In this document: in pieces, positions 3,076-36,849 of the stretch
Layout of the letters: each line of letters begins with the position of its first letter
Numbering within the stretch: the stretch's first letter is position 1
DNA from: a virus
Direction: 5' to 3' (one strand)
Length of the DNA: 64,000 nt
Virus record (IMG/VR): IMGVR_UViG_3300045988_136394
Coordinates: 1-64,000 of that record
Program-made: the position numbers and the translations under genes
The notes under the pieces: generated by a model
What the model was told of the DNA's origin: nothing
Databases searched by the model: none
The model's input: only the letters and a program-made list of their open reading frames with translations

Positions 3076-3224
3076 CTAACCAGCCGCGCCATATAGGATA
3101 TTCTATCAACACTTCGGCAAGTCCGGCACTTAATTTAACCGCAAAACTCACTAATCCAGCGGCGGCAGCAACTTTAATTATTGTTTTCCACTCAAACAAA
3201 TTATCAACTCCTATCTTTACTTAT

Positions 3225-3254
3225 ATTATAGCCCCCCTCTGTTCTGTTTGTCAA
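3225..3254 (-). promoter_or_regulatory. sigmaA-type promoter on the minus strand (TTGACA-18-TATAAT, G6 run before the -10) driving the 3075 to 117 operon
   Basis: Reverse complement reads TTGACAAACAGAACAGAGGGGGGCTATAAT. It is a direct-repeat copy of 1-40. Confidence 0.55.
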
Positions 3255-3299
3255 TAGGGTAATAAAAAATATAGTCCCTGTTAGAAGCTGGTAGGCAGA

Positions 3300-3620
3300 A
3301 AAACCCCTAACAGCACACAGTATTACTACTGTCTACTGAAAAGAGGTTTTTGCGATTGCGTCCCCGCCGTCGCTGTATAGTTGAATTGCTAGCCATTTCA
3401 TAGCGTCCCCAACGTCCCACGCTCCATGACTTACCCCCGCGCACTCTGCGCCCGTTGCCGCCAGCCGTATATTTTATAGACTATGCCTGTCTAAAGGTAT
3501 ATACACCATACCAGAGTAGGTTGACCTCTGCCAACTTCCCCCCCGCATAAAGCCCACTACAGCTAAAGCGGCTACTGATTTTTGCAATTAGAAAATCAGT
3601 AGGGGCAACGACTTTATAAA
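3300..3620. other. GC-rich ORF-free island between divergent promoters, with several hairpins; possible structured RNA or protein-binding region
   Basis: Local GC is far above the phage average (runs such as gcgtccccgccgtcgc and cccccgcgcactctgcgcccgttgccgcc). No ORF longer than 22 codons. An 11-bp stem ctactgatttt/aaaatcagtag is present. Confidence 0.3.
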
Positions 3621-3745
3621 CTTGGCTCGTTGCAGCACCAACCATTTTTTATACACAGGTGGGGTTATTCTGTGTCATTCCTATAGAGGTAAGGAATTTT
3701 TTCTATATTTAGTTAAAATCTAGTGTCAGCATTTACTTTTTTATA

Positions 3746-3774
3746 TTGACATTACTTTAAAATTTAGATATAAT
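3746..3774 (+). promoter_or_regulatory. consensus sigmaA promoter TTGACA-17-TATAAT
   Basis: ttgaca ttactttaaaatttaga tataat, a perfect consensus. Confidence 0.6.
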
Positions 3775-3780
3775 TTCTAT

Positions 3781-3928
3781 ATAGGCGTAACAAAAGGGGA
3801 CCTATAACTTCTAAAAGTTATAAGTTGATAATTAGTGTCGGCAAACATTTTTTATTGACATTGTTTTTTTTTGTTGCGTTTGCGTATGAGGTAGCAGCTC
3901 TGAAAAGAGTTGCTACTTTTTTATTTTA
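3781..3928 (+). ncRNA. candidate small RNA, about 150 nt, from the consensus promoter to an intrinsic terminator; no plausible ORF
   Basis: Promoter at 3746-3774. Terminator hairpin gtagcagctct-gaaa-agagttgctac followed by TTTTTTATTTT. Internal hairpin ataactt/aagttat. Confidence 0.35.
3891..3928 (+). terminator. Rho-independent terminator
   Basis: 11-bp stem with one G.U pair, GAAA loop, then T6AT4. Nested inside an outer 7-bp stem atgaggt/acctcat. Confidence 0.55.
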
Positions 3929-3953
3929 ACCTCATTTGATAAATTTGTCTAGT

Positions 3954-3983
3954 TGTGGATAATGTGGATAACTCTGTGTATAA
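3954..3983. promoter_or_regulatory. tandem DnaA-box cluster (TGTGGATAA-TGTGGATAA plus TGTGTATAA) followed by an AT-rich stretch
   Basis: Two contiguous perfect 9-mers matching the Firmicute DnaA-box consensus TTATCCACA/TGTGGATAA and a third copy with one mismatch. Confidence 0.55.
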
Positions 3984-4065
3984 ACTATATATAGTATTTA
4001 AACCGGAGTATTAGCCTATAAAAACACAAGATATAGTAAAAATAAAAGTTGTAAAAATTTTTAGC

Positions 4066-4094
4066 TTGATTTTTTTAGCCGTGCCGTTTATAAT
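4066..4094 (+). promoter_or_regulatory. sigmaA-type promoter TTGATT-17-TATAAT
   Basis: ttgatt tttttagccgtgccgtt tataat. Confidence 0.45.
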
Positions 4095-4128
4095 AATTCT
4101 GTAATTACAAATGCGTTAGGGGGGGGCA

Positions 4129-4251
4129 ATGCCTGTTCTCGAACGAATCAAAAGCCGCTCCCCGATAGTTCCTAACGTCGTGAATAACAAGAACATCACA
4201 AGCGCATATTTTCTTTTTCAAAATAAGTATCCTTTCTGTATGATTTATTAA
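4129..4251 (+). CDS. possible 40-aa small ORF (MPVLERIKSRSPIVPNVVNN...) within a roughly 210-nt promoter-to-terminator unit; may instead be a small RNA
   Basis: ATG preceded by a G8 run (RBS-like). The unit is bounded by the promoter at 4066-4094 and the terminator at 4271-4310. Confidence 0.25.
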   Translation: MPVLERIKSRSPIVPNVVNNKNITSAYFLFQNKYPFCMIY

Positions 4252-4270
4252 AAAAATCTTAGTAGGTTAT

Positions 4271-4310
4271 CCCTAGAATGCAGCTATACATTCTAGGGAT
4301 TTTTTCTTTT
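4271..4310 (+). terminator. Rho-independent terminator
   Basis: 10-bp stem ccctagaatg/cattctaggg followed by a T-run. Confidence 0.55.
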
Positions 4311-4329: not shown

Positions 4330-4358
4330 TTGACACCTTCTTGTATTCGCTTTATAAT
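4330..4358 (+). promoter_or_regulatory. consensus sigmaA promoter TTGACA-17-TATAAT for the plus-strand operon
   Basis: ttgaca ccttcttgtattcgctt tataat, then RBS AAAGGGGGG before the ATG at 4380. Confidence 0.6.
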
Positions 4359-8615: not shown

Positions 8616-8750
8616 TGTTTTTAAACTCCTTTCATATAATTACATTAAAAAATTTTTTACGGCCGTTTACGGACTGTTTTCATTAAGGCATTTTCCCAAC
8701 TCCTAACATTTTATTTACAGTTTTTAGCCCTATTTTGTGGCTATGCGTTT

Positions 8751-8779
8751 ATTATAATGCTATCTAGTATATTTGTCAA
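8751..8779 (-). promoter_or_regulatory. consensus sigmaA promoter (minus strand) TTGACA-17-TATAAT for the 8615 to 6099 operon
   Basis: Reverse complement reads TTGACAAATATACTAGATAGCATTATAAT. Confidence 0.55.
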
Positions 8780-8875
8780 CAATTATTTTTAACGACATAA
8801 ATCGTCCATTAAGGGTCTGTATTTTTGCTTTTAGATTTTATGATTTAACTCCTTAAATGGTTTTACGTGGCTTGT

Positions 8876-8936
8876 GTTTTTGATTATGGAAAATCACTCT
8901 ATAGGAGGGTATATTTTTTGATTATGGAAAATCATC
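8876..8936. repeat. two 21-bp direct repeats (TTTTTGATTATGGAAAATCA) with a 39-bp period; iteron-like
   Basis: Seen directly at 8876-8897 and 8915-8936. A G-rich motif ggtaggggtgggtggtagg follows at about 8948-8968. Confidence 0.6.
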
Positions 8937-8949
8937 CATTAATGGAGAT

Positions 8950-10060
8950 GTATTATGGTAGGGGTGGGTGGTAGGCCACATCTTCAAAACGGACTCCTGG
9001 GGGTATTAATTATGAAGATTAATAACATGGTAAGGGCATCTAGTTGCTTATGCTTATCAATAGCTATTGCTATTAGCTTATTATGCTAATTAATAATAAG
9101 GTATTATTTTGTATATATACTAATAATACACTTTTACTATTTATCTATACTTCATAATCATCTATATTACTAATAATATTCATTTATTATTTACCGCCAA
9201 ATGGCATAAACACTGGCTTTTTAATTAATAATGGCTATTGCTTATAATATATTGCTTGTTTGCATGGCTTGTATTATGGTATATATTGTATATATACATA
9301 TATTATATATTAATAAGGCTTCATAAGCATTAATTGTTACTAATAATGAGCTTGTGCTTATCATGCAGCGGCAAAAATAGTATTAAATCCTTATATGTAT
9401 ATGTTGTTTGTAGCCCTTAAACACTATATTTCCCATATTACCACATTGTTTATATTACTATATTTCACACTATATTTCTACTATTACTTGCATATAACAA
9501 TGGTAAATAGCTACCTAATATAACATAATATACAATATAACATGGTAACATATACTAAAAGCTAAATGGTAATATATTTCACCCTATACTATATGTTATA
9601 TTGTATATATTTCTATACTCTACTATGTAGTAACCTATAGTATATTTCACCTATTACTAATTATTAAAAGCTTTCTATATGTATATTATTATTAGTGTTA
9701 TATGTTGTTATATTTTAGTATTTTCTATATTGTATATATTATTAAAACCTAATAATTTTTACACAGCGCGGCGGCTTAAATTTTATATGGTATTATTAGA
9801 GTTCATTATCTTTACTAATATTTGTTATTAAACAGCATTATTATTACTATTAATATTAATTCCTATTACTCTTATTTTACTAGCTAATTACCTTTGCTTA
9901 TTTACCTGCAATCTGCATAAATATTGGCTTTTTAATCTTTTTTATTGCTTATTAATAATTGTTGCTAATTATATTGTTTGCTAATTATTCTGTGTTATTG
10001 TTTGTTGTATTATTACTATTATTGTTATTTATTATTTAATATTTTCAATAGTCACTAAAA
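8950..10060. repeat. 1.1-kb ORF-free, extremely AT-rich low-complexity tract with degenerate repeats (TTGCT/ATTGC/GCTTAT words; roughly 40-bp related copies at 9186 and 9900; isolated GC islands at 9365, 9765 and 10075)
   Basis: No ORF of 60 aa or more on either strand. Repeated ttatttacc(g/t)..gcataaa..tggctttttaat elements. Confidence 0.5.
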
Positions 10061-10358
10061 TACGTTTGTACTTACTACGCCGCCGCCAAATTTTGCCTAC
10101 ATTAATACTTTTTACCCTGCCCTATTACTTATACCTTTGCACGCAAAAACCTTTTATAGCCAATTTATATGCCTATAAAGCCTATTGCCAATTTACTAAT
10201 TTGCCAAAATACGCTATTTTTATTATATTTTTTATTACTTTTACATCATTTTATAAAATATGTTTACATATTTTGCTTGTAATTTTTTAATATTGTATAT
10301 TGTAATTTACAAGCAATTATGTTATAATAAAACCATAATAAACAAGGGGGTATTTAAT

Positions 10359-14220: not shown

Positions 14221-14514
14221 TTAAAAATTTTTATCATTTTTAATTTGTAACATTAAATCGCTATAAACTTTAATTTGTTGCTCGGTTAGCCATTCTGGCT
14301 TAATTTTTAAACTATCATATATAATGTACATATATTCGATGTGCATTTCAACAGTTTCGCCCCACAAGTGGCGTTCATTGCCGTTGCCATAACCTAAATA
14401 GTATTTGCAATCTGTTTGCAGTCGGTTTAGCAACATATATTTAAATTGTTCATCATGGCTTTCGATATACAATGCAAACCGACCTAATTCAATATTTTGT
14501 TTTTTAGTTAACAT
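14221..14514 (-). CDS. hypothetical protein
   Basis: 97-aa ORF with RBS AAGGGGG. Confidence 0.45.
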   Translation of the reverse strand: MLTKKQNIELGRFALYIESHDEQFKYMLLNRLQTDCKYYLGYGNGNERHLWGETVEMHIEYMYIIYDSLKIKPEWLTEQQIKVYSDLMLQIKNDKNF

Positions 14515-14553: not shown

Positions 14554-14582
14554 ATTATAAACGATTGTGATTTAAAAGTCAA
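14554..14582 (-). promoter_or_regulatory. consensus promoter TTGACT-17-TATAAT (minus strand) for 14221..14514
   Basis: Reverse complement reads TTGACTTTTAAATCACAATCGTTTATAAT. Confidence 0.55.
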
Positions 14583-14610
14583 CACTTTTTATGAAAAAAT
14601 TTTCAAAAAA

Positions 14611-14651
14611 AAAGTTATCCACAACTTTATTCACAGCCTGTGGATAACTTT
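14611..14651. promoter_or_regulatory. inverted pair of DnaA boxes (AAAGTTATCCACA...TGTGGATAACTTT, 13-bp perfect inverted repeat, 15-bp spacer) just upstream of the promoter at 14554-14582
   Basis: Perfect TTATCCACA and TGTGGATAA 9-mers seen directly. Confidence 0.5.
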
Positions 14652-14795
14652 CGTCTTCATAAATGGCCTGTATTAAGTTTTTTAGCGTGACCACATATAT
14701 TTATACCTATAAAGCCTAAAAACCGTTAAAACTAAAATATGAAGAAATTTAGGGTGATTGGCAAAAATGCAAAAAAAATAACCTGCAAATGCAGG

Positions 14796-15017
14796 CTATT
14801 TAAATAATTGTTCACGAGTTTTTTGCAGGTCGACTGCCTCTCCAGTACGCTTGTTAACCTTAATTATAGTGTGTGTTTGTGGCTCTTCGTAAAATTCGTG
14901 TGTTTCGTTTTGGGTAATTAGCCTTGGTTTTGGCTTAAAACCTTCAGGCGAATCGACTGGCCGAGTTGTTAAAAAGGTAACGGCCAATATAAATAATATT
15001 ACTGTTAACTTTTTCAT
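14796..15017 (-). CDS. small secreted or membrane-anchored protein (N-terminal signal/TM)
   Basis: MKKLTVILFILAVTFLTT hydrophobic N-terminus. Confidence 0.4.
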   Translation of the reverse strand: MKKLTVILFILAVTFLTTRPVDSPEGFKPKPRLITQNETHEFYEEPQTHTIIKVNKRTGEAVDLQKTREQLFK

Positions 15018-23900: not shown

Positions 23901-24981
23901 CGATATCCTCGTCTAAAGAAGATAAAATTTGAACGACTTTACCTTCTACCATTTTAATAGCTGTTGGTGTGCCATAGGATAAAGTGATAATATCTGTGGA
24001 TAAAGTATTTACAAGTTCTTTAAATTGAACAATGTCCAATAAGCACTCAAATTCTTTAAAATCATCACTTTCATCATATGGAATAATTTCTTCTGCTTTT
24101 GTTCTTGAAGAAATCATTTTAAGGCCTGTTTTAGTAAACAACAATTTAATAGTATTTTTATCATATTCAGATACGAAAATACTTAAACGGTCTAATGCCG
24201 CTTGCACTAAAGATTTTTTAATTGTACAAGTAGAAGGAAATTTTGTTTCTAAAAAACCATCAAGAGCTTCTACAGGATACGATTCAATATCTTCTAATTG
24301 TGTGCCTGCAATTTCAATCGTTTTGGATTTAATGATAACATCATTATCTACGAAATATACCTGTACATCTTCCTCTGTAATTAGAGTTGACAATTTCAAT
24401 AATTCGATTGGCAATAATGCAGGTCTTTTAAAAACATTTACTGAATATACGCAAAGCCTCAAGCTATCCGTGGTCATTACCCTGTCATTGAAATAATATC
24501 CAGTTATTACAGGATTTTCAATGGTTTTAGCTAAGCTTGCTGTGCAAATATCATAAACCGCCTGAAGAATTGGCTGTTTAACACGTACGGGTTTAACATC
24601 CTCAGGTATTTCTATGGAAACGTCCGGAAATTGCAATATATCCCCATTTTCGTCCAGTACAAGCTCAATATGATAATATCCATTACCTTTAAAAGTTAAA
24701 ACACCTTCCTCAATGGTAAGAATAATATGCTCACTTGTTGTTTTACTTACAAGCTTAGCAAAACTTGCAACAGGCAATACACAAGAAATATTTGGAGCTT
24801 TTACTTTATCTTTGTAAATACTTAAAAAATTAGCTCCATCTGTAGTTCTTAAACACAATACATTATCTTTTACTTCAAAACCAATATAATTCGTTAAAGG
24901 AATAAGTTTATCACAACTTGCACCTTTAACAACTCTGGATACCATATCTTTTAACTCTGATGTAATAATATCAATTTTCAT
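23893..24981 (-). CDS. DNA polymerase sliding clamp (DnaN-like beta subunit)
   Basis: 362 aa. N-terminal MKIDIIT...L...V pattern and clamp-loader context. Confidence 0.5.
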   Translation of the reverse strand: MKIDIITSELKDMVSRVVKGASCDKLIPLTNYIGFEVKDNVLCLRTTDGANFLSIYKDKVKAPNISCVLPVASFAKLVSKTTSEHIILTIEEGVLTFKGNGYYHIELVLDENGDILQFPDVSIEIPEDVKPVRVKQPILQAVYDICTASLAKTIENPVITGYYFNDRVMTTDSLRLCVYSVNVFKRPALLPIELLKLSTLITEEDVQVYFVDNDVIIKSKTIEIAGTQLEDIESYPVEALDGFLETKFPSTCTIKKSLVQAALDRLSIFVSEYDKNTIKLLFTKTGLKMISSRTKAEEIIPYDESDDFKEFECLLDIVQFKELVNTLSTDIITLSYGTPTAIKMVEGKVVQILSSLDEDIDG

Positions 24982-25559
24982 TATTTACTACTCCTTACTA
25001 AATTAATAAAAGATTGTTGTTCATCAAGATTTTCAAAAACGCCACTAGTATGCAAAGTTCTTGTAACCGCTCCTGGCTTTTTAATACCTCTTGCAGTCAT
25101 ACAAGAATGTTCTCCTTCAATCATTACAATTACATTGTCAGTCGATAAAATAGCAGACATAATACGATGAATACTAAATCCCATTCTTTCCTGAATTTGA
25201 AATCTTTTTGCAACCATATCAGCAATACGTGCCATCTTCGAAAGTCCAATTACTTTCGTTCTTGGATAATATCCAATACTTACATTCATATTATACATCA
25301 ATGCAAGATGATGTTCACAGTGACTAAAAACAGGAATATTTGTACAGGTTACAATACCGTGACCAGTTGTTTCAAAACACTTGCCAAACTTACTAACAAG
25401 ATCGGAATCAGAATAGAACTCACCCTCAAGTTGCTCTAACATCATTTTTGCAAATCTTTTAGGAGTTTCCTTTAATGAAGGATCTTGAAGATCTTTTCCA
25501 AAAGCCTGTAAAATAAGCTCTCCTGCGGATATAAGCATTTGTTCTTTAGTATTTTCCAT
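24981..25559 (-). CDS. folE: GTP cyclohydrolase I (FolE); start moved to the internal Met (MENTKEQ...) that abuts the queE stop
   Basis: HCEHH and GHG motifs of FolE. The ORF track extends to 25697 and overlaps queE. Confidence 0.75.
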   Translation of the reverse strand: MENTKEQMLISAGELILQAFGKDLQDPSLKETPKRFAKMMLEQLEGEFYSDSDLVSKFGKCFETTGHGIVTCTNIPVFSHCEHHLALMYNMNVSIGYYPRTKVIGLSKMARIADMVAKRFQIQERMGFSIHRIMSAILSTDNVIVMIEGEHSCMTARGIKKPGAVTRTLHTSGVFENLDEQQSFINLVRSSK

Positions 25560-25560
25560 T

Positions 25561-26214
25561 TTATACTCCTCTTTCATCCGGATTCCATATAATTTTATGA
25601 AGTTGAACTTGTACCATTGTATTTTCAAACATATTATCTTTAACAAATTGAACAAGTTCTTTCGGTTCAATCTGCCCATACACTGGGCTAAGAACATAGG
25701 TACAAATCAAATCCATATTATAAATTCGTTTAAATTCTTCTAAATCTTCTTTAGTAGCAACAACGAATTTCAATACATCATTATAAGTGAGCTTTTTAAG
25801 ATTACTTTCAAGCATTGAACCTAGCATACCACTACTCGGACATTTCCAATCCATTGTAACAAATACTCCGGGCAAACTACAACATGGTTCAATCGGCACA
25901 GAACCATTTGTTTCAATATTTACATGATACCCACCCCAAGATAAAGCTTCAATAAGATCGTTCATACCCGCTCTAAATAATGGTTCTCCACCTGTTAAAG
26001 TTACACGGCAACAACCAATTTTAGCAATGCTTTCAAGAATTTCCTGTAAAGACATATTTGGTTCTTGAACATCTTGTGCGTAAAGGGTATCACAATAACT
26101 ACAACATAAGTTACAGCCATTAAAGCGTACAAAAGTTGAAAGAAATCCAGTTCTAATTCCTTCACCTTCCACACTTAAAAACATTTCATTTACACTATAT
26201 ATCTTCTTGTTCAT
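25561..26214 (-). CDS. queE: 7-carboxy-7-deazaguanine synthase (QueE, radical SAM)
   Basis: CNLCCSYC (CxxxCxxC) radical-SAM cluster motif, about 217 aa. Confidence 0.75.
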   Translation of the reverse strand: MNKKIYSVNEMFLSVEGEGIRTGFLSTFVRFNGCNLCCSYCDTLYAQDVQEPNMSLQEILESIAKIGCCRVTLTGGEPLFRAGMNDLIEALSWGGYHVNIETNGSVPIEPCCSLPGVFVTMDWKCPSSGMLGSMLESNLKKLTYNDVLKFVVATKEDLEEFKRIYNMDLICTYVLSPVYGQIEPKELVQFVKDNMFENTMVQVQLHKIIWNPDERGV

Positions 26215-26533
26215 AAATTGCTAAATTCCCTTCGCTTTCTTGTACTTCTACTCTGTAACACGTTGGAATAATATCACAAATATATTTTGCAATATTTTCA
26301 GCTGTTGGATTAAAAGGAACAACTTGATTAATACTTTGATGATCGAATACATCCATTACACATTTTTTAATATGTGTAAAATCCTCAACCATGCCATAAT
26401 CCGAAAGTTCTCTAGCTTTGCAATAAATTTTAACTTTCCAATTATGACCGTGAAGATTAGCGCATTTACTCTCATAAGGCAGATTTAAATAATGAGATGC
26501 AGATATTTCTAATTCTTTGATAACTGTGTACAT
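26195..26533 (-). CDS. queD: 6-carboxy-5,6,7,8-tetrahydropterin synthase (QueD)
   Basis: CANLHGHNW (CxxxHGH) zinc motif, about 112 aa. Confidence 0.75.
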   Translation of the reverse strand: MYTVIKELEISASHYLNLPYESKCANLHGHNWKVKIYCKARELSDYGMVEDFTHIKKCVMDVFDHQSINQVVPFNPTAENIAKYICDIIPTCYRVEVQESEGNLAIYEQEDI

Positions 26534-26712
26534 TTTCTTCCTCCTGGTTTAATACGATTATGATATCTTTTTACTTTTACTTCGTGAATAAGATTTAATA
26601 ATACTTCAGCAGAAACTAATAAATTACCATTAGTATATTCATTTGCATATAAAGCAGTCTTTGCTCTTGTTTCTAGTTCTTTGATGGTTTTACCGTCTAC
26701 CATTTTTGCCAT
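26509..26712 (-). CDS. hypothetical 67-aa protein embedded in the deazaguanine operon
   Basis: ORF between queC and queD. No motif. Confidence 0.3.
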   Translation of the reverse strand: MAKMVDGKTIKELETRAKTALYANEYTNGNLLVSAEVLLNLIHEVKVKRYHNRIKPGGRKCTQLSKN

Positions 26713-26714
26713 AA

Positions 26715-27401
26715 TTAACCTCGCAAAGCTGGATCTTTTACACCATTAACTTCAAAAGCATGAGCTCTATCTCTACATGTACCACATACTCCACAAGGTT
26801 TTTCTCCACCCTCATAACAAGACCATGTAAATTTATAAGGGACTTTCAATGACAATCCAGCTTTAACAACTTCGCCTTTATTAAACATAATCAAAGGAGC
26901 TCTTAATGTAAGTTGGCCGCCAGTACCTTCTAAAATTGCTTTACGCATGGCATCCACAAATTCAGGAGTACAGTCCGGATATGCCCTACCAGCCGCATCA
27001 TCTGCATGAGCGCCATACCACACTTCACAGCCCCCGAGGGAATAAGCCAAAGACGCCGCTGAAGATAACATTAAGCCGTTACGAAATGGTACATAGGTAC
27101 TAACAGTCCCTTCACCACCTAATTCCTTTAATTGTTCGGCATAGGTAGTATGTTTAATTTCATTTTTACTATTTTTTAATAAACAGCAATCACTCAATTC
27201 CATAATACTACTAATATCCCGAACAATATGTTGAACACCATAATGTTCCGCTAACTTTTTAGCACAAGCTAATTCTTTCTCATGCTTTTGGCCGTAGTAA
27301 ATAGATAACGCTGTTACCTCTTTATTGCCATAACAATCAACTGCCATACCTAAACAAGTAGCGCTATCAACACCACCGCTCAACAATACAACTGCTTTCA
27401 A
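26715..27401 (-). CDS. queC: 7-cyano-7-deazaguanine synthase (QueC)
   Basis: SGGVDS PP-loop and C-terminal CGVCGTCRDR zinc motif. Confidence 0.85.
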   Translation of the reverse strand: MKAVVLLSGGVDSATCLGMAVDCYGNKEVTALSIYYGQKHEKELACAKKLAEHYGVQHIVRDISSIMELSDCCLLKNSKNEIKHTTYAEQLKELGGEGTVSTYVPFRNGLMLSSAASLAYSLGGCEVWYGAHADDAAGRAYPDCTPEFVDAMRKAILEGTGGQLTLRAPLIMFNKGEVVKAGLSLKVPYKFTWSCYEGGEKPCGVCGTCRDRAHAFEVNGVKDPALRG

Positions 27402-28321
27402 AATAATCGCCTCCTAATAATTTTTCCACCATGATAAGTATATTCTTTTGCCCAATCCATCAAAAATGTTACATTCCACAAATCGCGCTGAACATAATCT
27501 TCCATTAACTGCTCAAAATCGAAATTCTTGCTTTTAATGTAAGATTTTAAATCTTCCAAAGCTACAGCACTACCATTTAAAGGGTGAGCCATTTTATCCT
27601 TTTGCTGAGCACTAATAATAATAGTACCCCATGGAGTATAAATTGCTCCATTATGCCCGCTTTGAATCCACGAAGAACTATCCGCAGAAGTAACTGGATA
27701 TTGGACTAAAGTTTTTCTTACAGTCATTCCAAAAGCATGGACTTTAACATTGGGATTACTCGAACTTTTTATAATATCAAAACATAACGATAAAAAGTTC
27801 TTTTGTACATCTTTAGGCTTGCCCACCATACCACCAAGAGCGATATATTTTAATGGTTGGCCATTTTCATCTCGCCATTCTAAGGCTCTACGCAAACACC
27901 ATATCGGTTCACCCACATGGAACGTATATAGTAAGCCATCCTTATTTAAAACAGCATCCCTCATATACAAATAATTTTTCCATGTTTTTACAGCTGCATC
28001 TAATACTTGTGCTTGTGTAGGCTTTTGCCTGATGTTTCCTGGAATACAGTCCAATTGACCAAATAAATCAATATACTGCACTCTGTCGTTTAAAAAGTAA
28101 ACATAATCATCAACATTAATATATGTACCTTTAGTCCATGCAGTAAAAGCACCACTGTCAATAAATAGTTTACCTTTTCGACCGTATTGATTAATCCAGC
28201 CAATCCATCTATCAATATTTTTCCTTTCGTTCAAATAACTGAATAGATGATTGGCTCCCATATCGAACAAGCACTTATCTACATGATCTGTAACTTGTCC
28301 CGCAAAATATAAATCTAACAT
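27398..28321 (-). CDS. dpdA: DpdA-like tRNA-guanine-transglycosylase-family protein (putative 7-deazaguanine DNA transglycosylase)
   Basis: ALGGMVGK resembles the TGT AIGGL(A/S)VGE motif. Operon context with folE, queD, queE and queC. Confidence 0.55.
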   Translation of the reverse strand: MLDLYFAGQVTDHVDKCLFDMGANHLFSYLNERKNIDRWIGWINQYGRKGKLFIDSGAFTAWTKGTYINVDDYVYFLNDRVQYIDLFGQLDCIPGNIRQKPTQAQVLDAAVKTWKNYLYMRDAVLNKDGLLYTFHVGEPIWCLRRALEWRDENGQPLKYIALGGMVGKPKDVQKNFLSLCFDIIKSSSNPNVKVHAFGMTVRKTLVQYPVTSADSSSWIQSGHNGAIYTPWGTIIISAQQKDKMAHPLNGSAVALEDLKSYIKSKNFDFEQLMEDYVQRDLWNVTFLMDWAKEYTYHGGKIIRRRLF

Positions 28322-28422: not shown

Positions 28423-30705
28423 TTATTCGTTTTCATACCAACACTTTGTGATTTCAACATCACATTTTAAAGGCACAGAGAGTGAGGCTGCATTTATCAT
28501 ACATTCAGAAAGTAATTCAGCACATCTTATTTTATTCTCCTCTGGACATTCCCCAATAATTTCATCATGTACCTGAATAAGTAGTCGGAAGCCAAGCTGT
28601 TTTAACTCTTCACAACGACTAATAGATAACATGGCGAATTTTGTTAGGTCAGCCGCACTTCCTTGTACCCTAGCATTTACACACATACGAGTTGCATCAG
28701 CAATTTTCATCCGATTATCAACTACCTTTATACCCTCGTTATTCGCCTCTTCAATTACGGCTTGATGTTGCTTAAAGCTCTTACATCCAGCTAATTTATT
28801 CCAATAATATGTTACGATTTCTTCAGGTACTTCAGTATTTTGATCTTCATCATCGGCAAGTGGGTCATAGTCTTTCGACACACCATCTTTCCAATAAAAT
28901 TCGTAGGTGTCTAATTGCATATCAGGAAGTCTTCTTTTTCTTCCCCATGCAGTAGTTACATAACCTAGATCTCTTGCCATTTGCCGACTCTCTTCTCTAA
29001 ATGTTTTTAATTTAGGAAAAGCGTTTAAAACTGCATCGTATATTTCCTGAGCTAATTTTTTAGAAATATGTAAATCATCTGCAATAGCCGGGATTCCTTT
29101 ATCATAGTTAATACCTAAAAGAATAGCCTTTGCTCGACTACGTCTTTCCTTTCCTTCAGGATTGTGTGTGCCATCGGGTCTAAATTCCAAACAGTCATCA
29201 TACGGAACATTGAAAGCTAATGAAGCGATTTCGGCGTACAAATCTTTTCCATCGATATAAGCCTGAATACCTTTTTCGTCCTGCGCTAAATGCACAGTCA
29301 ATCGAGGTTCCTGAGCTGAGTAATCGCAGGATAACATTACATAGCCGTCACTAGCCTTGAACATTTTTCGTATGTCTTTTGCATGGCTTGGAATATTTTG
29401 CAAATTAGGGTCATCACTCGAGAAACGACCTGTAATTGTTCCAAGTTGATTAAATCTCGCATGAATCCTCCCTGTTTTTGCATTTATAATTTTTGGGAAT
29501 TTATCTACATATGTAGATACTAATTTTGAAGCCTTACGAAATTTCAATAAGGCCGTTACCAATGGATTATCAAACTGCTCAAGAATTTCTTCTCCTGTGC
29601 CACGAGGTTTCTTCTTGCTTACTGGAGGCAGTTTCATAATATCATACAACAGGATAGATAGTTGCTCTGGACTGGCTGGATTAATCTTCTCAGGCAGTTT
29701 ACAAGAAGAACCTTGTTTGATTCTATATTCTTCGATTTCAGATTCATAGAGTGAAAGAGTTTCTTCGAACTCTACCGCAGCTTCACTCATAAGCTTGTTA
29801 TACTTTTCAGATAACTTTTGCTGAACCTCTAAATCAAGAAATACTCCTGTATCTTCCATTTCAGAAACGATTGGAACCAATGGCATTTCTAATTCATGGA
29901 ATATTTTAGCAACATCTTGCAACTCATACTCTCTGCATACTTCAGTATCGGTTAAAAACGGACGTTGAAATTCGGCTAATTCATATGTAATCATAGGGTC
30001 ATTAGCCGCATATAAATACGCAACATCAACAGGAATCATTGTAAACGGAATACCCGCAAACAACTCTGAAAATGTATGCGATTTATCCTTGCCTTTATTA
30101 ACGTACTTATCCCATAAACCCTTTAAACTATTATTTTTATTATTTTCATCGAGCAGTCGTTGTGCAATATAGCCATCCCACCAACAAAACATTTTAATGC
30201 CTAAAGTATGTTTTAATACCCTACAGTCAAAATCGCTATTAAACATATCAATTTTCACTTTTGCATCTATTAAACGCTGTAATTCACGTTTAACAATTTC
30301 AGCTGAAATTTGCCCTTTAATCGGCATACCTGTCATATAACTAACATGATTTACAGGTACATAAGCAGCTTTATATCCTGGAGTATATAAACAAACACCT
30401 GCTAAAGTTGTAGTGATGGGATCTAAACTTGTTGTTTCTGTATCGATTGCCCCAATACCATTTTCAATAAATTTATCAATTAAATCTATTAAAATAGCTT
30501 CGTCCATAACATTTAAGTACATATCTTTTTTATCAGCAAAATACCTATTTGTCATGGCTTTAATTGAAGTAATTCGACTAGATAAATTACCTGCCTTCAA
30601 CTTTACGTTTCCGGCAGATAATATAGGTAATTTTGATTTAGCTTTATTGACAACTTGTGCATCCGTTATTTTTGATGAACGAGGTTTAAAATCAAATAGA
30701 GCCAT
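28423..30705 (-). CDS. family-A DNA polymerase (PolA-like) with a 3'-5' exonuclease domain
   Basis: Exo I motif AIDTETTSL. Motif A LSCDYSAQEPRL, motif B RRSRAKAILLGINYDKG, motif C QVHDEII. Confidence 0.9.
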   Translation of the reverse strand: MALFDFKPRSSKITDAQVVNKAKSKLPILSAGNVKLKAGNLSSRITSIKAMTNRYFADKKDMYLNVMDEAILIDLIDKFIENGIGAIDTETTSLDPITTTLAGVCLYTPGYKAAYVPVNHVSYMTGMPIKGQISAEIVKRELQRLIDAKVKIDMFNSDFDCRVLKHTLGIKMFCWWDGYIAQRLLDENNKNNSLKGLWDKYVNKGKDKSHTFSELFAGIPFTMIPVDVAYLYAANDPMITYELAEFQRPFLTDTEVCREYELQDVAKIFHELEMPLVPIVSEMEDTGVFLDLEVQQKLSEKYNKLMSEAAVEFEETLSLYESEIEEYRIKQGSSCKLPEKINPASPEQLSILLYDIMKLPPVSKKKPRGTGEEILEQFDNPLVTALLKFRKASKLVSTYVDKFPKIINAKTGRIHARFNQLGTITGRFSSDDPNLQNIPSHAKDIRKMFKASDGYVMLSCDYSAQEPRLTVHLAQDEKGIQAYIDGKDLYAEIASLAFNVPYDDCLEFRPDGTHNPEGKERRSRAKAILLGINYDKGIPAIADDLHISKKLAQEIYDAVLNAFPKLKTFREESRQMARDLGYVTTAWGRKRRLPDMQLDTYEFYWKDGVSKDYDPLADDEDQNTEVPEEIVTYYWNKLAGCKSFKQHQAVIEEANNEGIKVVDNRMKIADATRMCVNARVQGSAADLTKFAMLSISRCEELKQLGFRLLIQVHDEIIGECPEENKIRCAELLSECMINAASLSVPLKCDVEITKCWYENE

Positions 30706-34686: not shown

Positions 34687-35326
34687 TCAAAATTCGACTG
34701 GATAAGCGTTTACCAACCTGTTTTTCTAAATCTTTATCAGAAACATTACTTGTAAAAATATTAGCAAGTCCCATATTCATTCTTGAATTAATAAAATCAT
34801 ATAAAGTATTTTGTTCAAAAGCGCTTAATCCTGAAACTGCAACATCATCCCAAACTACTAAATCAACAACAGGAATTAAATCTAATAAATCTTGTACATT
34901 ATTTGCTGAATTAAAGGATTGTTTTATGGAAAACAATAAATTTTGTGTAGAAAGGAACAGTCCCCGAGGTTTAAATCCGTTACCTAGCCAGATTTCACTA
35001 AAGTATCGCAGGAGAAATTTGGTTGCCCATGTAGTTTTCCCATTACCTGTAAAACAACTGTGAATAAATAAATTTTCACCCGCCGCCACAAAATTAATAA
35101 TATCCTGTTTTAAATCATTAAGATATTCAAAACTATCATAATCACAACTATCAGGTTTTAAATTTACAGATTTCTGATATACTTTTGGAATACGGCTAGT
35201 ATAAATTAAAAAATCAAATTCCATAAATCTTAAACAACTAGCACAACAGTCAGTTGTTTTGTACTTGCCACAAACATCTTTAAACCAGCATTTTTCACGA
35301 TCAAATTTATACTCATACATAATCAA
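34640..35326 (-). CDS. DnaI/DnaC-like helicase loader (N-terminal Cys-rich zinc module plus P-loop ATPase)
   Basis: CGKYKTTDCCASC zinc cluster and GNGKTT P-loop. Confidence 0.45.
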   Translation of the reverse strand: MIMYEYKFDREKCWFKDVCGKYKTTDCCASCLRFMEFDFLIYTSRIPKVYQKSVNLKPDSCDYDSFEYLNDLKQDIINFVAAGENLFIHSCFTGNGKTTWATKFLLRYFSEIWLGNGFKPRGLFLSTQNLLFSIKQSFNSANNVQDLLDLIPVVDLVVWDDVAVSGLSAFEQNTLYDFINSRMNMGLANIFTSNVSDKDLEKQVGKRLSSRILSGDIVALRGKDRRRG

Positions 35327-36102
35327 TACACCTTGTCAATAATAGTGTGATCTAATCCATCATCTTCCGGAGTTTGTTGGATATTATCAATAGGCTTATC
35401 TTTACGTTGCAATTCCCACACAGGCACTAAAACTTTATATCCTGCCGCAAGGGCTGTTTGAACTCTTGAATATACTTCTGTAAAAGATCTGCCTTTAAGG
35501 CTATTTAAAATTGCTTGCCATTGTTCTGGCTCTAATTTAAATTTTAATCGATATTTTAGATATGAACTCAAACAAGCTTTTAATACAGTCCTGTCATTCT
35601 TTATTAAAAAATTTTCTAAAAGAAAAGCGTCCAACTGCTTATCAAACCGCGAAAAATTATTTTCTTTGCTTGTTTTAGCACGTACCCCCCTTATACCCCC
35701 TAGTTTATTATCTATATTGCTATTTGGTATATTATTCTTATTGTCTAATTGTCTAGTATTATTATATTTATTATTTTCTTGTGTTCTACTTTCTGGAACA
35801 CGTTGTTCTACTTTCTGGAACACGTCAAAATTAATAGCATACGCATTTTTTAGTCCAATACCATTTTCGTGCATTGACTGTTTTTTTAGAATCAAATCTT
35901 TCTCGACTAAAGAATTTATACATTTCTGAACTGTTGCATTTGATAAATTTAAATGTTCAGCAAGACTTCTAATAGTCATTGTAAAATACTGATTTTCAAC
36001 ATTTGCATATCTATAAATTACAGCATAAATTGTTAGCTCCGAACCACTTAATTTAAGGTCTTTAAACATCCATTCGTGTACTGTATAGTAGAAATCTTTC
36101 AT
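35323..36102 (-). CDS. DnaD-like replication initiation / replisome organiser protein
   Basis: N-terminal winged-helix-like region and a C-terminal DnaD-like domain (YLKYRLKFKLEPEQWQAILN). Confidence 0.5.
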   Translation of the reverse strand: MKDFYYTVHEWMFKDLKLSGSELTIYAVIYRYANVENQYFTMTIRSLAEHLNLSNATVQKCINSLVEKDLILKKQSMHENGIGLKNAYAINFDVFQKVEQRVPESRTQENNKYNNTRQLDNKNNIPNSNIDNKLGGIRGVRAKTSKENNFSRFDKQLDAFLLENFLIKNDRTVLKACLSSYLKYRLKFKLEPEQWQAILNSLKGRSFTEVYSRVQTALAAGYKVLVPVWELQRKDKPIDNIQQTPEDDGLDHTIIDKVY

Positions 36103-36636: not shown

Positions 36637-36849
36637 TTATCTGCCACCGAACATCTTACTTGTTTCAATAATTTGATTATCTACTTCATCATTTACACGA
36701 CTCCAGGCTTTCTGCCTTACTTCATCTATATTGTCGTCAGTTTCTAGGCTAATCAACTCACTGGCTTCAAAAGTAAAAAATTCACCCTGTATCTGACAAC
36801 TTCTTTTACTGGAAACTGTGATTTCTTTAATCTTTGACATATTTAACAT
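36637..36849 (-). CDS. hypothetical protein
   Basis: 70-aa ORF. Confidence 0.3.
   Translation of the reverse strand: MLNMSKIKEITVSSKRSCQIQGEFFTFEASELISLETDDNIDEVRQKAWSRVNDEVDNQIIETSKMFGGR

What the first reader, a model, noticed from the sequence alone, without database searches (positions are those of the whole stretch)
3954..3983. Tandem perfect DnaA boxes in the non-coding control region
TGTGGATAA-TGTGGATAA are contiguous and a TGTGTATAA follows, then an AT-rich stretch. The region sits between small-RNA-like units and the divergent early promoters. The phage encodes DnaD-like, DnaI-like, DnaB-like and DnaG-like proteins but no DnaA. That is the Firmicute initiation cascade downstream of DnaA. 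It suggests a host-DnaA-dependent phage origin or DnaA titration.
Basis: partly seen in the sequence, partly recalled or inferred. Interest (0 to 1): 0.65.

Follow-up and report, generated by a model that had tools for sequence, protein, structure and literature searches.

The report
Host-DnaA docking sites in a phage
A gut phage of Firmicute bacteria carries two conserved triplets of near-perfect binding sites for the host replication initiator DnaA, one built like the triplet upstream of bacterial dnaA genes, but its own replication origin appears to lie elsewhere, so the sites more likely capture or sense host DnaA than start phage replication.

Summary
TGTGGATAA-TGTGGATAA-ctc-TGTGTATAA sits at 3954-3983. 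About 2.6e-5 such three-box clusters are expected per window.

Both triplets are intergenic and conserved in relatives. The two substitutions seen in the second triplet fall only on the degenerate base of TTATNCACA.

The origin reading is not supported:
- The canonical position holds no DnaA-trio array or GC spacer.
- The phage's DnaD_N/O-like initiator gene contains its own lambda-style origin: palindromic iterons plus a very AT-rich stretch at about 35700-35825. A diverged lineage has a different initiator N-domain and different iterons at the same place.
- The cultured relatives Dp-1 and phiCTP1 share the same replication module and have no DnaA-box cluster.

The second triplet (TTATNCACA-3-TGTGNATAA-3-TGTGNATAA) has the same architecture as a triplet found upstream of dnaA in Bacillota genomes. 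The same architecture recurs in at least 50 unrelated viral contexts. Its box orientation pattern matches the E. coli DARS core, but one spacer differs.

Best reading, with moderate confidence: these are portable host-DnaA docking modules acting as an operator, a sink, or both. They are not the origin. The actual function needs experiments.

The parts
3954..3962 (-). DnaA box 1a, exact TTATCCACA (TGTGGATAA on + strand)
3963..3971 (-). DnaA box 1b, exact TTATCCACA, contiguous with 1a (0-bp spacer)
   Evidence: One of 21 close relatives (L005) has TGTGGGTAA here.
3975..3983 (-). DnaA box 1c, TTATACACA (fits TTATNCACA), 3-bp spacer from 1b
3937..4003 (.). Conserved island around cluster 1. It holds 17 bp upstream, the three boxes and an AT palindrome, and is flanked by variable DNA and indel breakpoints.
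   Evidence: In an alignment of 20 distinct haplotypes, only 3 sites vary, each in 1-2 haplotypes. A deletion of 4003-4209 in L015/L137 and an IS insertion at about 4050 in L010 both leave the island intact.
3936..3963 (+). Promoter-like element TTGATA-16-GATAAT (10/12). Its -10 is created by the junction of boxes 1a and 1b.
   Evidence: Consensus scan only. Function is not shown.
3984..3995 (.). Perfect 12-bp AT palindrome ACTATATATAGT abutting box 1c, part of an imperfect longer palindrome at 3976-4003
3746..3929 (+). Upstream unit: a perfect sigma-A-type promoter (3746-3774), about 145 nt of transcribed sequence, then a strong intrinsic terminator (3888-3919 plus T-run) that ends about 25 bp before box 1a
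4066..4300 (+). Downstream unit: promoter-like TTGATT-17-TATAAT (4066-4094), about 200 nt (possible 40-aa ORF at 4129-4251), then a terminator (4269-4300). It is dispensable in relative L015/L137.
14615..14623 (+). DnaA box 2c, exact TTATCCACA. It is the third box when read on the minus strand.
14627..14635 (+). DnaA box 2b, TTATTCACA, with 3-bp spacers on both sides
   Evidence: The diverged lineage has TTATCCACA here.
14639..14647 (-). DnaA box 2a, exact TTATCCACA on the minus strand. It is inverted relative to 2b and 2c, so the minus strand reads TTATCCACA-ggc-TGTGAATAA-agt-TGTGGATAA.
   Evidence: The architecture matches the Bacillota dnaA-upstream triplet.
14600..14780 (.). Conserved non-coding block holding cluster 2 plus about 125 bp on the terminator side. 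It is 82-90% identical to a lineage whose flanking proteins are 46-66% identical.
14554..14582 (-). Near-consensus promoter TTGACT-17-TATAAT, 32 bp downstream of the triplet in the minus sense (17 bp in the diverged lineage). It drives the 97-aa gene 14514..14221. It is deleted in relative L199/L031, which keeps the triplet.
14776..14801 (-). Intrinsic terminator that closes the replication-gene transcription unit just upstream of the conserved block
35782..35825 (-). Two perfect tandem 22-bp palindromic iterons, ACGTGTTCCAGAAAGTAGAACA, in the linker-coding part of the initiator gene. This is the candidate phage origin.
   Evidence: Different iterons (TGTCCCAAAAACTGGGAC x3-4) occupy the same place in the lineage whose initiator is 36% identical. 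phiCTP1 gp38 has TTGCCAnAGTGGCA x2.
35700..35781 (.). AT-rich stretch (about 17% GC) next to the iterons, followed by G-runs. This is the candidate unwinding element of the phage origin.
   Evidence: It ranks at the 0.18th percentile of least stable 80-bp windows.
35323..36102 (-). Initiator gene (HTH_36 plus DnaD_N domains; PHROG 'DnaD-like helicase loader / replication initiation O-like')

Best explanation
Both triplets are self-contained cis-acting docking sites for the host initiator DnaA. They are not the phage's replication origin.

Cluster 2 (14615-14647) copies the architecture of the three-box module that lies upstream of dnaA in Bacillota genomes. It has one box facing two tandem boxes, with 3-bp spacers. 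This layout should seat three DnaA protomers, one head-to-head pair plus one head-to-tail neighbour. Cluster 1 (3954-3983) is a tandem array of three co-oriented boxes.

Proposed action: host DnaA loads on these sites as soon as phage DNA enters the cell. The small DnaA complexes act locally as operators or roadblocks at the boundaries of early transcription units. Cluster 1 overlaps a promoter-like -10. Cluster 2 lies between a terminator and a strong promoter. Collectively, as phage DNA multiplies, the sites act as a sink for DnaA. Phage expression and host initiation would then both track the ratio of DnaA to phage genome copies.

What is shown:
- the sequences, their statistical improbability and their conservation pattern;
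- the match between the cluster 2 architecture and bacterial dnaA-upstream triplets;
- a separate candidate origin, and the absence of origin hallmarks at the boxes.

What is inferred:
- that DnaA actually binds;
- the operator and sink effects and their sign.

Replication itself most likely starts at the iteron plus AT-rich element inside the initiator gene (about 35700-35825).
For: Non-randomness: two three-box clusters are seen where about 2.6e-5 are expected.

Selection on box identity:
- Cluster 1 is identical in 20 of 21 close relatives and sits in a 67-bp conserved island flanked by variable DNA.
- Cluster 2 is kept in a lineage whose flanking proteins are 46-66% identical. Its only two substitutions hit the degenerate N of TTATNCACA. 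The chance of that is about 0.0085 by simple combinatorics.

Host-type architecture:
- 79 of these loci have dnaA within 8 kb. In 73 the triplet lies upstream of dnaA in one fixed orientation, with a median of about 266 bp to dnaA.
- The phage triplet has that same orientation relative to its downstream gene.

Portability:
- The same architecture occurs in 77 viral-contig loci, 54-56 distinct contexts, about 50 of them unrelated to this phage.
- Contiguous TGTGGATAATGTGGATAA occurs in at least 58 viral context families.

No phage-encoded DnaA or DnaA domain IV was detected.

Not the origin:
- No trios.
- A candidate origin lies in the initiator gene, with co-varying iterons. Its AT stretch is at the 0.18th percentile of duplex stability, against 1.3-8% beside the boxes.
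- No boxes lie near that origin.
- Dp-1 and phiCTP1 lack clusters.

Local transcription link: a promoter-like TTGATA-16-GATAAT overlaps boxes 1a and 1b, and a near-consensus promoter lies 32 bp from cluster 2.

Established knowledge:
- DnaA is a transcription factor and autoregulates dnaA in B. subtilis (PMC3245932, PMC4447404).
- Host DnaA modulates lambda replication mode (PMC5499656).
Against: - No binding data exist and the host is unknown. A Bacillota host is inferred from relatives and promoter type.
- Two natural variants delete the adjacent downstream promoter but keep the boxes: L015/L137 for cluster 1 and L199/L031 for cluster 2. A 15-bp indel also changes the distance from boxes to promoter. 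A strict operator role for those promoters is therefore doubtful.
- In other phages the triplet shows no consistent promoter association (6 of 50 downstream, 2 of 50 upstream, 9 of 50 divergent) and no fixed orientation to neighbouring genes.
- In bacteria, promoter-like sites lie upstream of the triplet, not downstream as in the phage.
- A sink of six boxes per genome is small. A multicopy DnaA-box-cluster plasmid in B. subtilis bound DnaA but did not correct over-initiation (PMC3245932).
- The phage encodes a 7-deazaguanine DNA-modification pathway, which might alter the G in GGATAA.
- The 125-bp conserved block next to cluster 2 is unexplained.
Confidence: 0.45

Rival explanations
1. Host-DnaA-dependent origin, primary or auxiliary. 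DnaA bound at cluster 1 (and/or cluster 2) opens neighbouring AT-rich DNA, or recruits the phage DnaD-like protein, the loader and the helicase. This would give an early theta origin.
For: - The boxes are tandem, high-affinity and spaced 0-3 bp apart, as at origins.
- Cluster 1 lies in a 1.2-kb non-coding region at a switch of gene orientation. Its right flank is moderately unstable, at the 1.3th percentile.
- The phage initiator carries a DnaD_N domain. In B. subtilis, DnaD contacts DnaA (PMC7561715 discussion).
- On the minus strand, the order and orientation of the two clusters (an oriC1-like triplet, then a tandem array) parallel a bipartite Firmicute oriC.
- Contiguous box pairs do form the unwinding-module boxes in some bacterial oriC2 regions (L393).
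Against: - No GC spacer and no array of at least three trios lies on the side where DnaA would be guided, namely 5' of TGTGGATAA. The AT-rich flank is on the other side.
- A better origin candidate, with lineage-specific iterons, lies inside the initiator gene.
- No iteron copy lies near the boxes.
- Dp-1 and phiCTP1 share the replication module and have no clusters.
- Cluster 1 was not found in the 41 kb examined of the diverged lineage.
- The flanks of cluster 2 are not unstable, at the 7-8th percentile.
Confidence: 0.15
2. DARS-like element. The cluster 2 triplet promotes ADP release from DnaA through a head-to-head dimer, raising ATP-DnaA and deregulating host initiation, or feeding a DnaA-dependent phage step.
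For: - The box orientation pattern is the same as in the E. coli DARS cores read from MG1655. DARS1 is TTATCCACT-5-TGTGGATAA-3-TGTGTATTA and DARS2 is TTATTCACC-5-TGTGGATAG-3-TGTGAAGAA.
- The II-III spacing is identical at 3 bp.
- The mechanism depends on the opposed boxes I and II (PMC6868365, PMC8682772).
Against: - The I-II spacer is 3 bp, not 5 bp, and DARS spacings are reported as highly conserved (PMC6868365).
- The 5/3 arrangement is the rarer one in viral contigs, 19 loci against 77.
- No DARS is described in Bacillota in the papers read. From my own knowledge, DnaA of low-GC Gram-positives exchanges nucleotide quickly, so such an element would be less needed.
- In Bacillota genomes the same triplet sits at dnaA, which suggests autoregulation or oriC1 rather than DARS.
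Confidence: 0.07
3. Architectural or anchoring role. Membrane-associated DnaA holds or pauses incoming phage DNA, as proposed for the T5 injection-stop region. Alternatively, DnaA oligomers bridge the two clusters and loop out the 10.6-kb early region between them.
For: [quoted passage not shown]
- Here too the boxes sit 0-3 bp apart in long non-coding DNA.
- The two clusters bracket the low-GC small-gene region.
Against: - The T5 model is itself untested.
- This phage is not T5-like: it has a contractile tail and a Dp-1/phiCTP1-type replication module.
- The genome ends are unknown, and relatives' contig ends do not coincide at the boxes.
- The diverged lineage has only cluster 2 in the DNA examined.
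Confidence: 0.06
4. The motifs are recognised by a phage-encoded protein, or are non-functional remnants of captured host DNA. Their resemblance to DnaA boxes would then be incidental.
For: Many small phage ORFs have unknown function. Horizontal capture of host DNA by phages is common (general knowledge).
Against: - Four exact copies and six of six matches to TTATNCACA.
- Substitutions are confined to the degenerate position.
- The architecture is identical to bacterial dnaA-upstream triplets.
- No extended homology to any of the 120 bacterial loci exists beyond the triplet plus or minus 4 nt, so this is not a recent capture from those genomes.
- The elements are conserved above the level of the flanking genes.
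- No DnaA domain IV-like phage protein was found.
Confidence: 0.07

Closest known systems
DnaA-box triplet upstream of dnaA in Bacillota (dnaA promoter / oriC1 region of bipartite origins)
   Same: Cluster 2 has the identical architecture, TTATNCACA-3 bp-TGTGNATAA-3 bp-TGTGNATAA. It even shares the flanking AAAG...C. Its orientation relative to the downstream gene is also the same.
   Different: - No dnaA gene follows it. The downstream gene is a 97-aa phage ORF.
- The strong promoter lies downstream of the phage triplet, whereas promoter-like sites lie upstream of the bacterial ones.
- No oriC2-type unwinding module is paired with it.
Basal unwinding system of oriC2 (B. subtilis, C. difficile and others): tandem DnaA boxes, GC spacer, DnaA-trios, DUE
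   Same: Cluster 1 is a tandem array of co-oriented consensus boxes with 0-3-bp spacers. It resembles the box part of the system (PMC8287927, PMC7561715, for example L393).
   Different: It lacks the GC spacer and the trio array. The sequence 5' of TGTGGATAA is tttgtctagt. The more AT-rich flank lies on the wrong side.
E. coli DARS1/DARS2 core (DnaA-reactivating sequences)
   Same: Three boxes, with box I opposed to boxes II and III, and 3 bp between II and III (PMC6868365).
   Different: The I-II spacer is 3 bp, not 5 bp. The host is Bacillota. No IHF/Fis-type flanks were identified. Activity is untested.
Lambda-type and SPP1-type origins embedded in the initiator gene (lambda O, SPP1 G38P, 80alpha ORF20)
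   Same: The phage's own candidate origin has iterons plus an AT-rich stretch in the inter-domain linker of the initiator gene, followed by loader and helicase genes (PMC5499656).
   Different: This concerns the element at 35.7 kb, not the DnaA boxes. The iterons are palindromic and there are only two of them. In lambda, host DnaA acts through transcription near the origin, whereas here the boxes are 21-32 kb away.
DnaA boxes of the phage T5 injection-stop (iss) region
   Same: Closely spaced DnaA boxes (3 bp) in a large untranslated region of a virulent phage, argued not to be the origin (10.1101/866236).
   Different: T5 has eight boxes, in pairs, embedded in inverted repeats inside the terminal repeat. 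Here there are two triplets, the genome ends are unknown and the phage lineage is unrelated.
DnaA-assisted plasmid and phage origins (P1 oriR, pSC101, ColE1 DnaA site) and chromosomal DnaA-box clusters (datA, B. subtilis DBCs)
   Same: Clusters of consensus boxes outside oriC that bind DnaA and modulate replication or transcription (PMC3245932, PMC4447404).
   Different: - No initiator iterons adjoin the boxes.
- There are far fewer boxes than in datA or the DBCs.
- The boxes sit on a virulent-type phage genome.

Membership tests
DnaA-box cluster (operational definition: at least 3 boxes with at most 1 mismatch, less than 100 bp apart; Mackiewicz criterion as quoted in PMC7561715) | At least three boxes matching TTATCCACA with at most 1 mismatch within 100 bp | tested here: met
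   Both clusters hold 3 boxes within 30-33 bp.
oriC basal unwinding system (BUS) | One or two DnaA boxes in tandem | tested here: met
   Cluster 1 has three co-oriented boxes.
oriC basal unwinding system (BUS) | Spacer of at most 16 bp (GC-rich), then at least 3 DnaA-trios (3'-GAT-5'), on the 5' side of TGTGGATAA | tested here: not met
   The sequence 5' of cluster 1 is ...gataaatttgtctagt and shows no NAN periodicity in any frame. True examples fetched here read TAGTAGTAG-GGGC-TGTGGATAA, or TTATCCACA..cacagCCCCTACTACTATTACTACTA. Cluster 2 was also checked by eye, with none found.
oriC basal unwinding system (BUS) | AT-rich DUE beyond the trios | tested here: not met
   The flank on the correct side (3900-3953) is at the 8th-27th percentile of duplex stability and contains a GC-rich terminator stem. 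The unstable flank (1.3th percentile) lies on the opposite side.
Bacillota dnaA-upstream triplet | Architecture TTATNCACA-3-TGTGNATAA-3-TGTGNATAA | tested here: met
   Cluster 2 on the minus strand reads TTATCCACA-ggc-TGTGAATAA-agt-TGTGGATAA.
Bacillota dnaA-upstream triplet | Located upstream of dnaA in fixed orientation | tested here: not met
   The window holds no dnaA. Orientation relative to the downstream gene is nevertheless the same as in 73 of 79 bacterial loci.
Bacillota dnaA-upstream triplet | Binds DnaA / autoregulates transcription | not testable with these tools
   Needs EMSA, ChIP or reporter assays.
E. coli DARS core | Three boxes, with box I opposed to boxes II and III | tested here: met
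   Cluster 2 compared with DARS1 and DARS2 read from MG1655.
E. coli DARS core | Conserved spacing: 5 bp between I and II, 3 bp between II and III | tested here: not met
   The I-II spacer is 3 bp, against 5 bp in DARS1 and DARS2 (PMC6868365). The II-III spacer of 3 bp matches.
E. coli DARS core | Promotes ADP release from DnaA | not testable with these tools
   Needs a biochemical assay.
DnaA-assisted iteron origins (P1 oriR / pSC101 type) | DnaA boxes adjacent to initiator iterons and an AT-rich region | tested here: not met
   The iterons occur only at 35782-35825, with a related site at 41342. No box cluster lies within 10 kb of the initiator gene in either lineage.
Origin embedded in initiator gene (lambda O / SPP1 G38P type), applied to the element at 35.7 kb | Direct repeats (iterons) plus an AT-rich stretch inside the initiator ORF, upstream of loader and helicase genes | tested here: met
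   The iterons differ while the architecture is kept in the lineage with a 36%-identical initiator. phiCTP1 gp38 is similar.
Origin embedded in initiator gene (lambda O / SPP1 G38P type), applied to the element at 35.7 kb | Initiator binds the repeats and replication starts there | not testable with these tools
   Needs footprinting and marker-frequency or 2D-gel mapping.
T5 iss DnaA-box region | Paired boxes 3 bp apart, embedded in inverted repeats within the terminal repeat's untranslated region | tested here: inconclusive
   The 3-bp spacing and the long untranslated region are present. No IRC/IRD-type repeat scaffold was seen. The genome termini are unknown.

The most novel reading that the evidence does not exclude
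Many phages, including this one, carry a portable three-box DNA module copied from the host's own dnaA-upstream control region. They use it as a protein-free host-takeover device. As phage DNA amplifies, the module captures the master initiator DnaA, or recharges it in a DARS-like way. This would reprogram host chromosome initiation and dnaA-dnaN expression and would time phage gene expression by genome copy number.
Probability: 0.2. Interest if true: 0.8.

Novelty: new variant of a known kind. Interest (0 to 1): 0.55.

Why it matters
DnaA boxes on phage genomes have been noted case by case, in lambda, P1 and T5, and are usually read as origins.

Here the evidence separates two things. The phage's own origin is an iteron-based element inside its initiator gene. 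The DnaA sites are host-type docking modules. One of them has the same architecture as the triplet upstream of dnaA in Bacillota, and that architecture recurs in dozens of unrelated viral contigs.

If these modules really capture or sense DnaA, they would be a widespread and cheap cis-acting way for phages to read or manipulate the host replication cycle. They would also warn against annotating phage origins from DnaA boxes alone.

The work also makes a question directly testable: what does the conserved head-to-head plus head-to-tail triplet do at Firmicute dnaA genes? The candidates are autoregulation, an oriC1 function, or DARS-like nucleotide exchange.

Tried and rejected
- Rfam at gathering and at E<=1, and tRNA/tmRNA scans of the control region: nothing found.
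- Search for a phage-encoded DnaA or DnaA domain IV. The one weak hit (36637-36849, E 0.05) is a spurious FGGR match. Genuine E. coli DnaA gives no hit.
- DnaA-trio/BUS test on both flanks and both strands of both clusters: negative (positive controls).
- Iteron copies near the boxes: none.
- Cluster 1 equivalent in the diverged lineage. It was not found in the 41 kb fetched. That lineage runs from the small-gene module straight into the terminase genes.
- Extended homology of the cluster 2 block to bacterial dnaA leaders. Only the triplet plus or minus 4 nt aligns.
- RNA structure in the 125-bp conserved block beside cluster 2: z-scores near 0 on both strands. One compensatory change in an 8-bp inverted repeat is too little to build on.
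- Consistent promoter association, or fixed orientation, of the triplet in other phages: none.
- GC skew as an origin indicator: uninformative, because nearly all genes share one strand.
- Estimating genome size and ends from relatives' contigs: inconsistent or mosaic, and one contig is probably chimeric.
- An early script timed out, and another failed on file paths, with no effect on results.
Full report
**Observation.**
Positions 3954-3983 read TGTGGATAA TGTGGATAA ctc TGTGTATAA. Exact TTATCCACA occurs 5 times in the 64-kb window against about 1 expected, and 0 of 100 shuffles reached 5. TTATNCACA occurs 13 times against 5.1 expected. Three such boxes within 40 bp never appeared in 1500 first-order Markov simulations, and the analytic expectation is about 2.6e-5 per window.

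It lies at 14615-14647 and reads TTATCCACA, TTATTCACA, then an inverted TTATCCACA, each separated by 3 bp. All six boxes fit the classical TTATNCACA. The fifth exact box (23995) is isolated inside the clamp-like gene and is compatible with chance.

**The genome.**
The window is a human-gut phage. Its only GenBank nucleotide match is an unannotated 6-kb faecal contig. Nearly all genes are on the minus strand.

- A contractile-tail structural module occupies 45-64 kb.
- A replication module occupies 15-39 kb. It holds an SNF2 helicase, a DnaD_N/HTH 'O-like' initiator (35323-36102), a DnaC/I-like loader, a DnaB-like helicase, a DnaG-like primase, SSB, PolA, a FolE/QueE/QueD/QueC/DpdA-like 7-deazaguanine cluster, a clamp, RecU, RecA and clamp-loader subunits.
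- No DnaA homologue was detected in the window.
- The closest cultured relatives by PolA and capsid protein infect Bacillota: Clostridium phage phiCTP1, Streptococcus phage Dp-1 and Brevibacillus phages.
- The window holds 14 near-consensus sigma-A-type promoters (13 with a 17-bp spacer, plus the 18-bp-spacer one at 3225-3254). A Firmicute host is thus a sound inference.

**Anatomy of cluster 1.**
It lies in a 1.2-kb ORF-free region (3076-4277). In order, this region contains:

- a leftward perfect promoter (3254..3225);
- a GC-rich structured stretch (3282-3706);
- a perfect rightward promoter (3746-3774), followed after about 145 nt by a strong terminator (3888-3919);
- the three boxes;
- a perfect 12-bp AT palindrome (3984-3995);
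- a weaker promoter (4066-4094) with its own terminator (4269-4300);
- a perfect promoter (4330-4358) for a short rightward operon that includes a Rad52-like recombinase.

Across 20 distinct haplotypes, the 67 bp from 3937 to 4003 are almost invariant, while both flanks vary. Structural variants break exactly beside this island. One relative deletes 4003-4209 and so loses the next promoter. Another has a 1.7-kb IS200/IS605 element inserted at about 4050. The island also matches a promoter consensus, TTGATA-16-GATAAT, whose -10 is formed by the junction of the two contiguous boxes. This is a consensus match only.

**Anatomy of cluster 2.**
Read on the minus (coding) strand, it is TTATCCACA-ggc-TGTGAATAA-agt-TGTGGATAA. 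It sits between the terminator that ends the replication-gene unit (14801..14776) and a near-consensus promoter (14582..14554) for a 97-aa gene.

A diverged lineage (flanking proteins 46-66% identical) keeps the triplet. Its only two changes fall on the degenerate position of two boxes. The triplet and about 125 bp on its terminator side form the best-conserved stretch of the compared region, at 82-90% identity. The side facing the promoter carries a 15-bp indel. In one relative, a deletion of about 180 bp removes the promoter and the gene start but keeps the triplet.

**Is it an origin?**
I took the canonical Firmicute unwinding module from the literature. It consists of tandem boxes, a short GC spacer, at least three DnaA-trios (3'-GAT-5') and then AT-rich DNA (PMC8287927, PMC7561715). 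I checked its orientation against real examples fetched here:

- Viral contigs read TAGTAGTAG-GGGC-TGTGGATAATGTGGATAA.
- Of the 54 bacterial dnaA-dnaN spacers printed, most read TTATCCACA..CACAG-CCCC-TACTACTATTACTACTA, as judged by eye.

Neither phage cluster has a GC spacer or a trio array in that position. For cluster 1, the more meltable flank (1.3th percentile) is on the wrong side.

The initiator gene, by contrast, contains two perfect 22-bp palindromic repeats (35782-35825). These are followed by about 80 bp of 17% GC DNA, at the 0.18th percentile of duplex stability, and then G-runs. All of this lies in the linker between the DNA-binding domain and the conserved C-terminal domain.

In the diverged lineage the initiator is only 36% identical. 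The same position carries different palindromic repeats (TGTCCCAAAAACTGGGAC, three to four copies), followed by the same AT-rich and G-run layout. phiCTP1 gp38 shows a third repeat type at the equivalent place.

This co-variation of iterons with the initiator is the signature of origins embedded in initiator genes, as in lambda O, SPP1 G38P and 80alpha ORF20 (PMC5499656). No DnaA-box cluster lies within 10 kb of this element in either lineage. Dp-1 and phiCTP1 share the whole replication-module synteny and have no DnaA-box cluster anywhere. The inference that a phage encoding the cascade downstream of DnaA must use host DnaA at these boxes is therefore not supported.

**What cluster 2 resembles.**
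Scanning public collections for TTATNCACA-N3-TGTGNATAA-N3-TGTGNATAA gave the following.

- Viral contigs: 77 loci, 54-56 distinct contexts, about 50 of them unrelated to this phage. They share an extended consensus, AAAG-TTATCCACA-gsc-TGTGGATAA-ncc-TGTGGATAA-C.
- In 79 bacterial loci, dnaA lies within the 8-kb stretch. In 73 of these the triplet is upstream of dnaA in one fixed orientation. The median distance to dnaA is about 266 bp, and dnaN lies a further 1.5 kb on.

The triplet is therefore the standard DnaA-box module of the dnaA-upstream (dnaA promoter / oriC1) region of these bacteria, and the phage carries a copy of that design. Only the triplet plus or minus 4 nt aligns to the bacterial loci, so this is not a recent capture from those genomes.

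The box orientation pattern (I opposed to II and III) also matches the E. coli DARS cores, which I read directly from MG1655. DARS1 is TTATCCACT-5-TGTGGATAA-3-TGTGTATTA and DARS2 is TTATTCACC-5-TGTGGATAG-3-TGTGAAGAA. The I-II spacer is 3 bp in the phage against 5 bp in DARS, a spacing described as highly conserved (PMC6868365). The 5/3 variant is also rarer in viral contigs, with 19 loci. Contiguous TGTGGATAATGTGGATAA pairs, as in cluster 1, occur in more than 120 viral loci forming at least 58 context families, mostly intergenic and often with further boxes nearby.

**Function.**
The evidence supports docking of host DnaA but does not fix the consequence.

For a local transcriptional role:
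- Both clusters lie at boundaries of transcription units.
- Cluster 1 overlaps a promoter-like -10.
- Cluster 2 is 32 bp (17 bp in the diverged lineage) upstream of the -35 of a strong promoter.
- DnaA is an established transcription factor and autoregulator in B. subtilis (PMC3245932, PMC4447404).

Against a strict operator role:
- Both clusters survive in variants that delete the adjacent promoter.
- The spacing to the promoter is not kept.
- In other phages the triplet has no consistent promoter association and no fixed orientation relative to neighbouring genes.
- In bacteria, promoter-like sites lie upstream of the triplet rather than downstream.

This context-independence fits a self-contained module whose job is simply to hold DnaA, as a sink or decoy. 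However, six boxes per genome is few. In B. subtilis, a multicopy DnaA-box-cluster plasmid bound DnaA without correcting over-initiation (PMC3245932).

I therefore commit to the following reading, at about 0.45 confidence. These are non-origin host-DnaA docking modules. They act as an operator or roadblock locally and as a DnaA sink collectively, and they tie phage expression and host initiation to the ratio of DnaA to phage copies. The rivals are an auxiliary DnaA-dependent origin (0.15), DARS-like exchange (0.07), T5-like anchoring or looping (0.06), and incidental or phage-protein sites (0.07).

One caveat applies to all of these readings. The phage probably modifies some guanines to 7-deazaguanines. 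Dp-1 replaces 1.7% of its G (PMC6884629), and GA-specific DpdA enzymes exist (PMC10484667). The G of GGATAA might therefore be modified.

**Comparison with the literature, and novelty.**
DnaA boxes on phage DNA are known in lambda (which has DnaA-dependent replication control), in P1 oriR and in the T5 injection-stop region (10.1101/866236; PMC5499656). My searches of the held library found no description of DARS-like elements or dnaA-upstream-type triplets in phages.

The finding is a new variant of a known kind. It is a Firmicute-phage pair of DnaA-box triplets, one with the same architecture as the host's dnaA-upstream module, separate from the phage's own origin, and an example of a widespread and largely unexamined class of viral DnaA-box modules.

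Noticed in passing
window 35700-35825 (inside gene 35323-36102, minus strand): Candidate phage origin inside the initiator gene. It has two perfect 22-bp palindromic iterons, about 80 bp of 17% GC DNA and then G-runs. A lineage whose initiator is 36% identical has different iterons at the same place, and phiCTP1 gp38 has a third repeat type.
   Followed up: yes
window 3282-3706: GC-rich (about 50% against 33%) non-coding stretch between a promoter-like site (3248-3275, +) and a short terminator-like hairpin (3678-3705, +). It folds better than shuffles on both strands (z -3.4 and -4.1). It has no Rfam match even at E<=1. This is a candidate structured RNA of about 420 nt from an unknown family.
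   Followed up: partly
window 8704-10065: A 1.36-kb ORF-free region at about 25% GC, full of short tandem repeats. It holds 9 of the 15 least stable 40-bp windows of the whole window. The diverged lineage has an ORF-free gap at the equivalent place. Its function is unknown; packaging, a terminus, a second origin and a recombination hotspot are all possible.
   Followed up: partly
L010 3440-5150 (equivalent to window about 4050): One relative carries an IS200/IS605-family element (147-aa TnpA-like plus 372-aa TnpB-like ORFs) inserted 65 bp from the DnaA boxes. Another relative (L015/L137) deletes window 4003-4209. The DNA just right of the conserved island is an indel hotspot.
   Followed up: partly
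window 24981-28321 (minus strand): Complete 7-deazaguanine DNA-modification gene set (FolE, QueE, QueD, QueC and a DpdA-like transglycosylase), as in Streptococcus phage Dp-1. If the transglycosylase targets GA, the G of each GGATAA box would be modified.
   Followed up: partly
window 41342-41360: A third palindrome related to the origin iterons (TGTTCTACTTGTCCGAACA), inside ORF 40963-41481. It could be a second initiator-binding site, like SPP1 oriR.
   Followed up: no
window 14648-14775: A 125-bp non-coding block next to cluster 2 is conserved more strongly than the flanking genes. It contains an 8-bp inverted repeat (TCTTCATA / TATGAAGA, about 75 bp apart) with one compensatory change in the diverged lineage. 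RNA folding shows nothing significant, and the block is unexplained.
   Followed up: partly
L053, L119, L106, L128, L143, L061 (viral contigs): Some viral contigs carry a complete oriC2-type unwinding module (TAG trios, GGGC, then TGTGGATAATGTGGATAA). These are either phage- or plasmid-borne chromosomal-type origins or host DNA in viral bins.
   Followed up: no
L048/L057 family (26 loci) and L054/L096 family (viral contigs): Abundant human-gut phage families carry TTATCCACA-n4-6-TGTGGATAATGTGGATAA in intergenic DNA. One family has it next to an endolysin gene, another next to RNase H-like and anti-repressor genes. Phage DnaA-box modules are therefore not tied to replication genes.
   Followed up: partly
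window 10-44090: Fourteen near-consensus sigma-A-type promoters, all co-oriented with the genes and none in the structural module (45-64 kb). Two leftward ones (10-38 and 3225-3254) share the motif GGGGGCTATAAT.
   Followed up: partly
window 15-25 kb and 28423-30705: The phage combines a family-A DNA polymerase with its own sliding clamp and a three-subunit clamp loader, as do Dp-1 and phiCTP1. This is an unusual pairing that has not been explained.
   Followed up: no
contig IMGVR_UViG_3300045988_138881 (L167, L178, L183): This 81.5-kb contig contains both initiator types (99% and 36% identical to the window's). It is probably a chimeric or concatenated assembly of two related phages.
   Followed up: no
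bacterial loci L288-L407: In Clostridia and relatives, promoter-like sites lie 14-90 bp upstream of the dnaA-upstream triplet. This places the triplet in the dnaA leader, a geometry that suggests autorepression by roadblock. The evidence is consensus matches only.
   Followed up: partly
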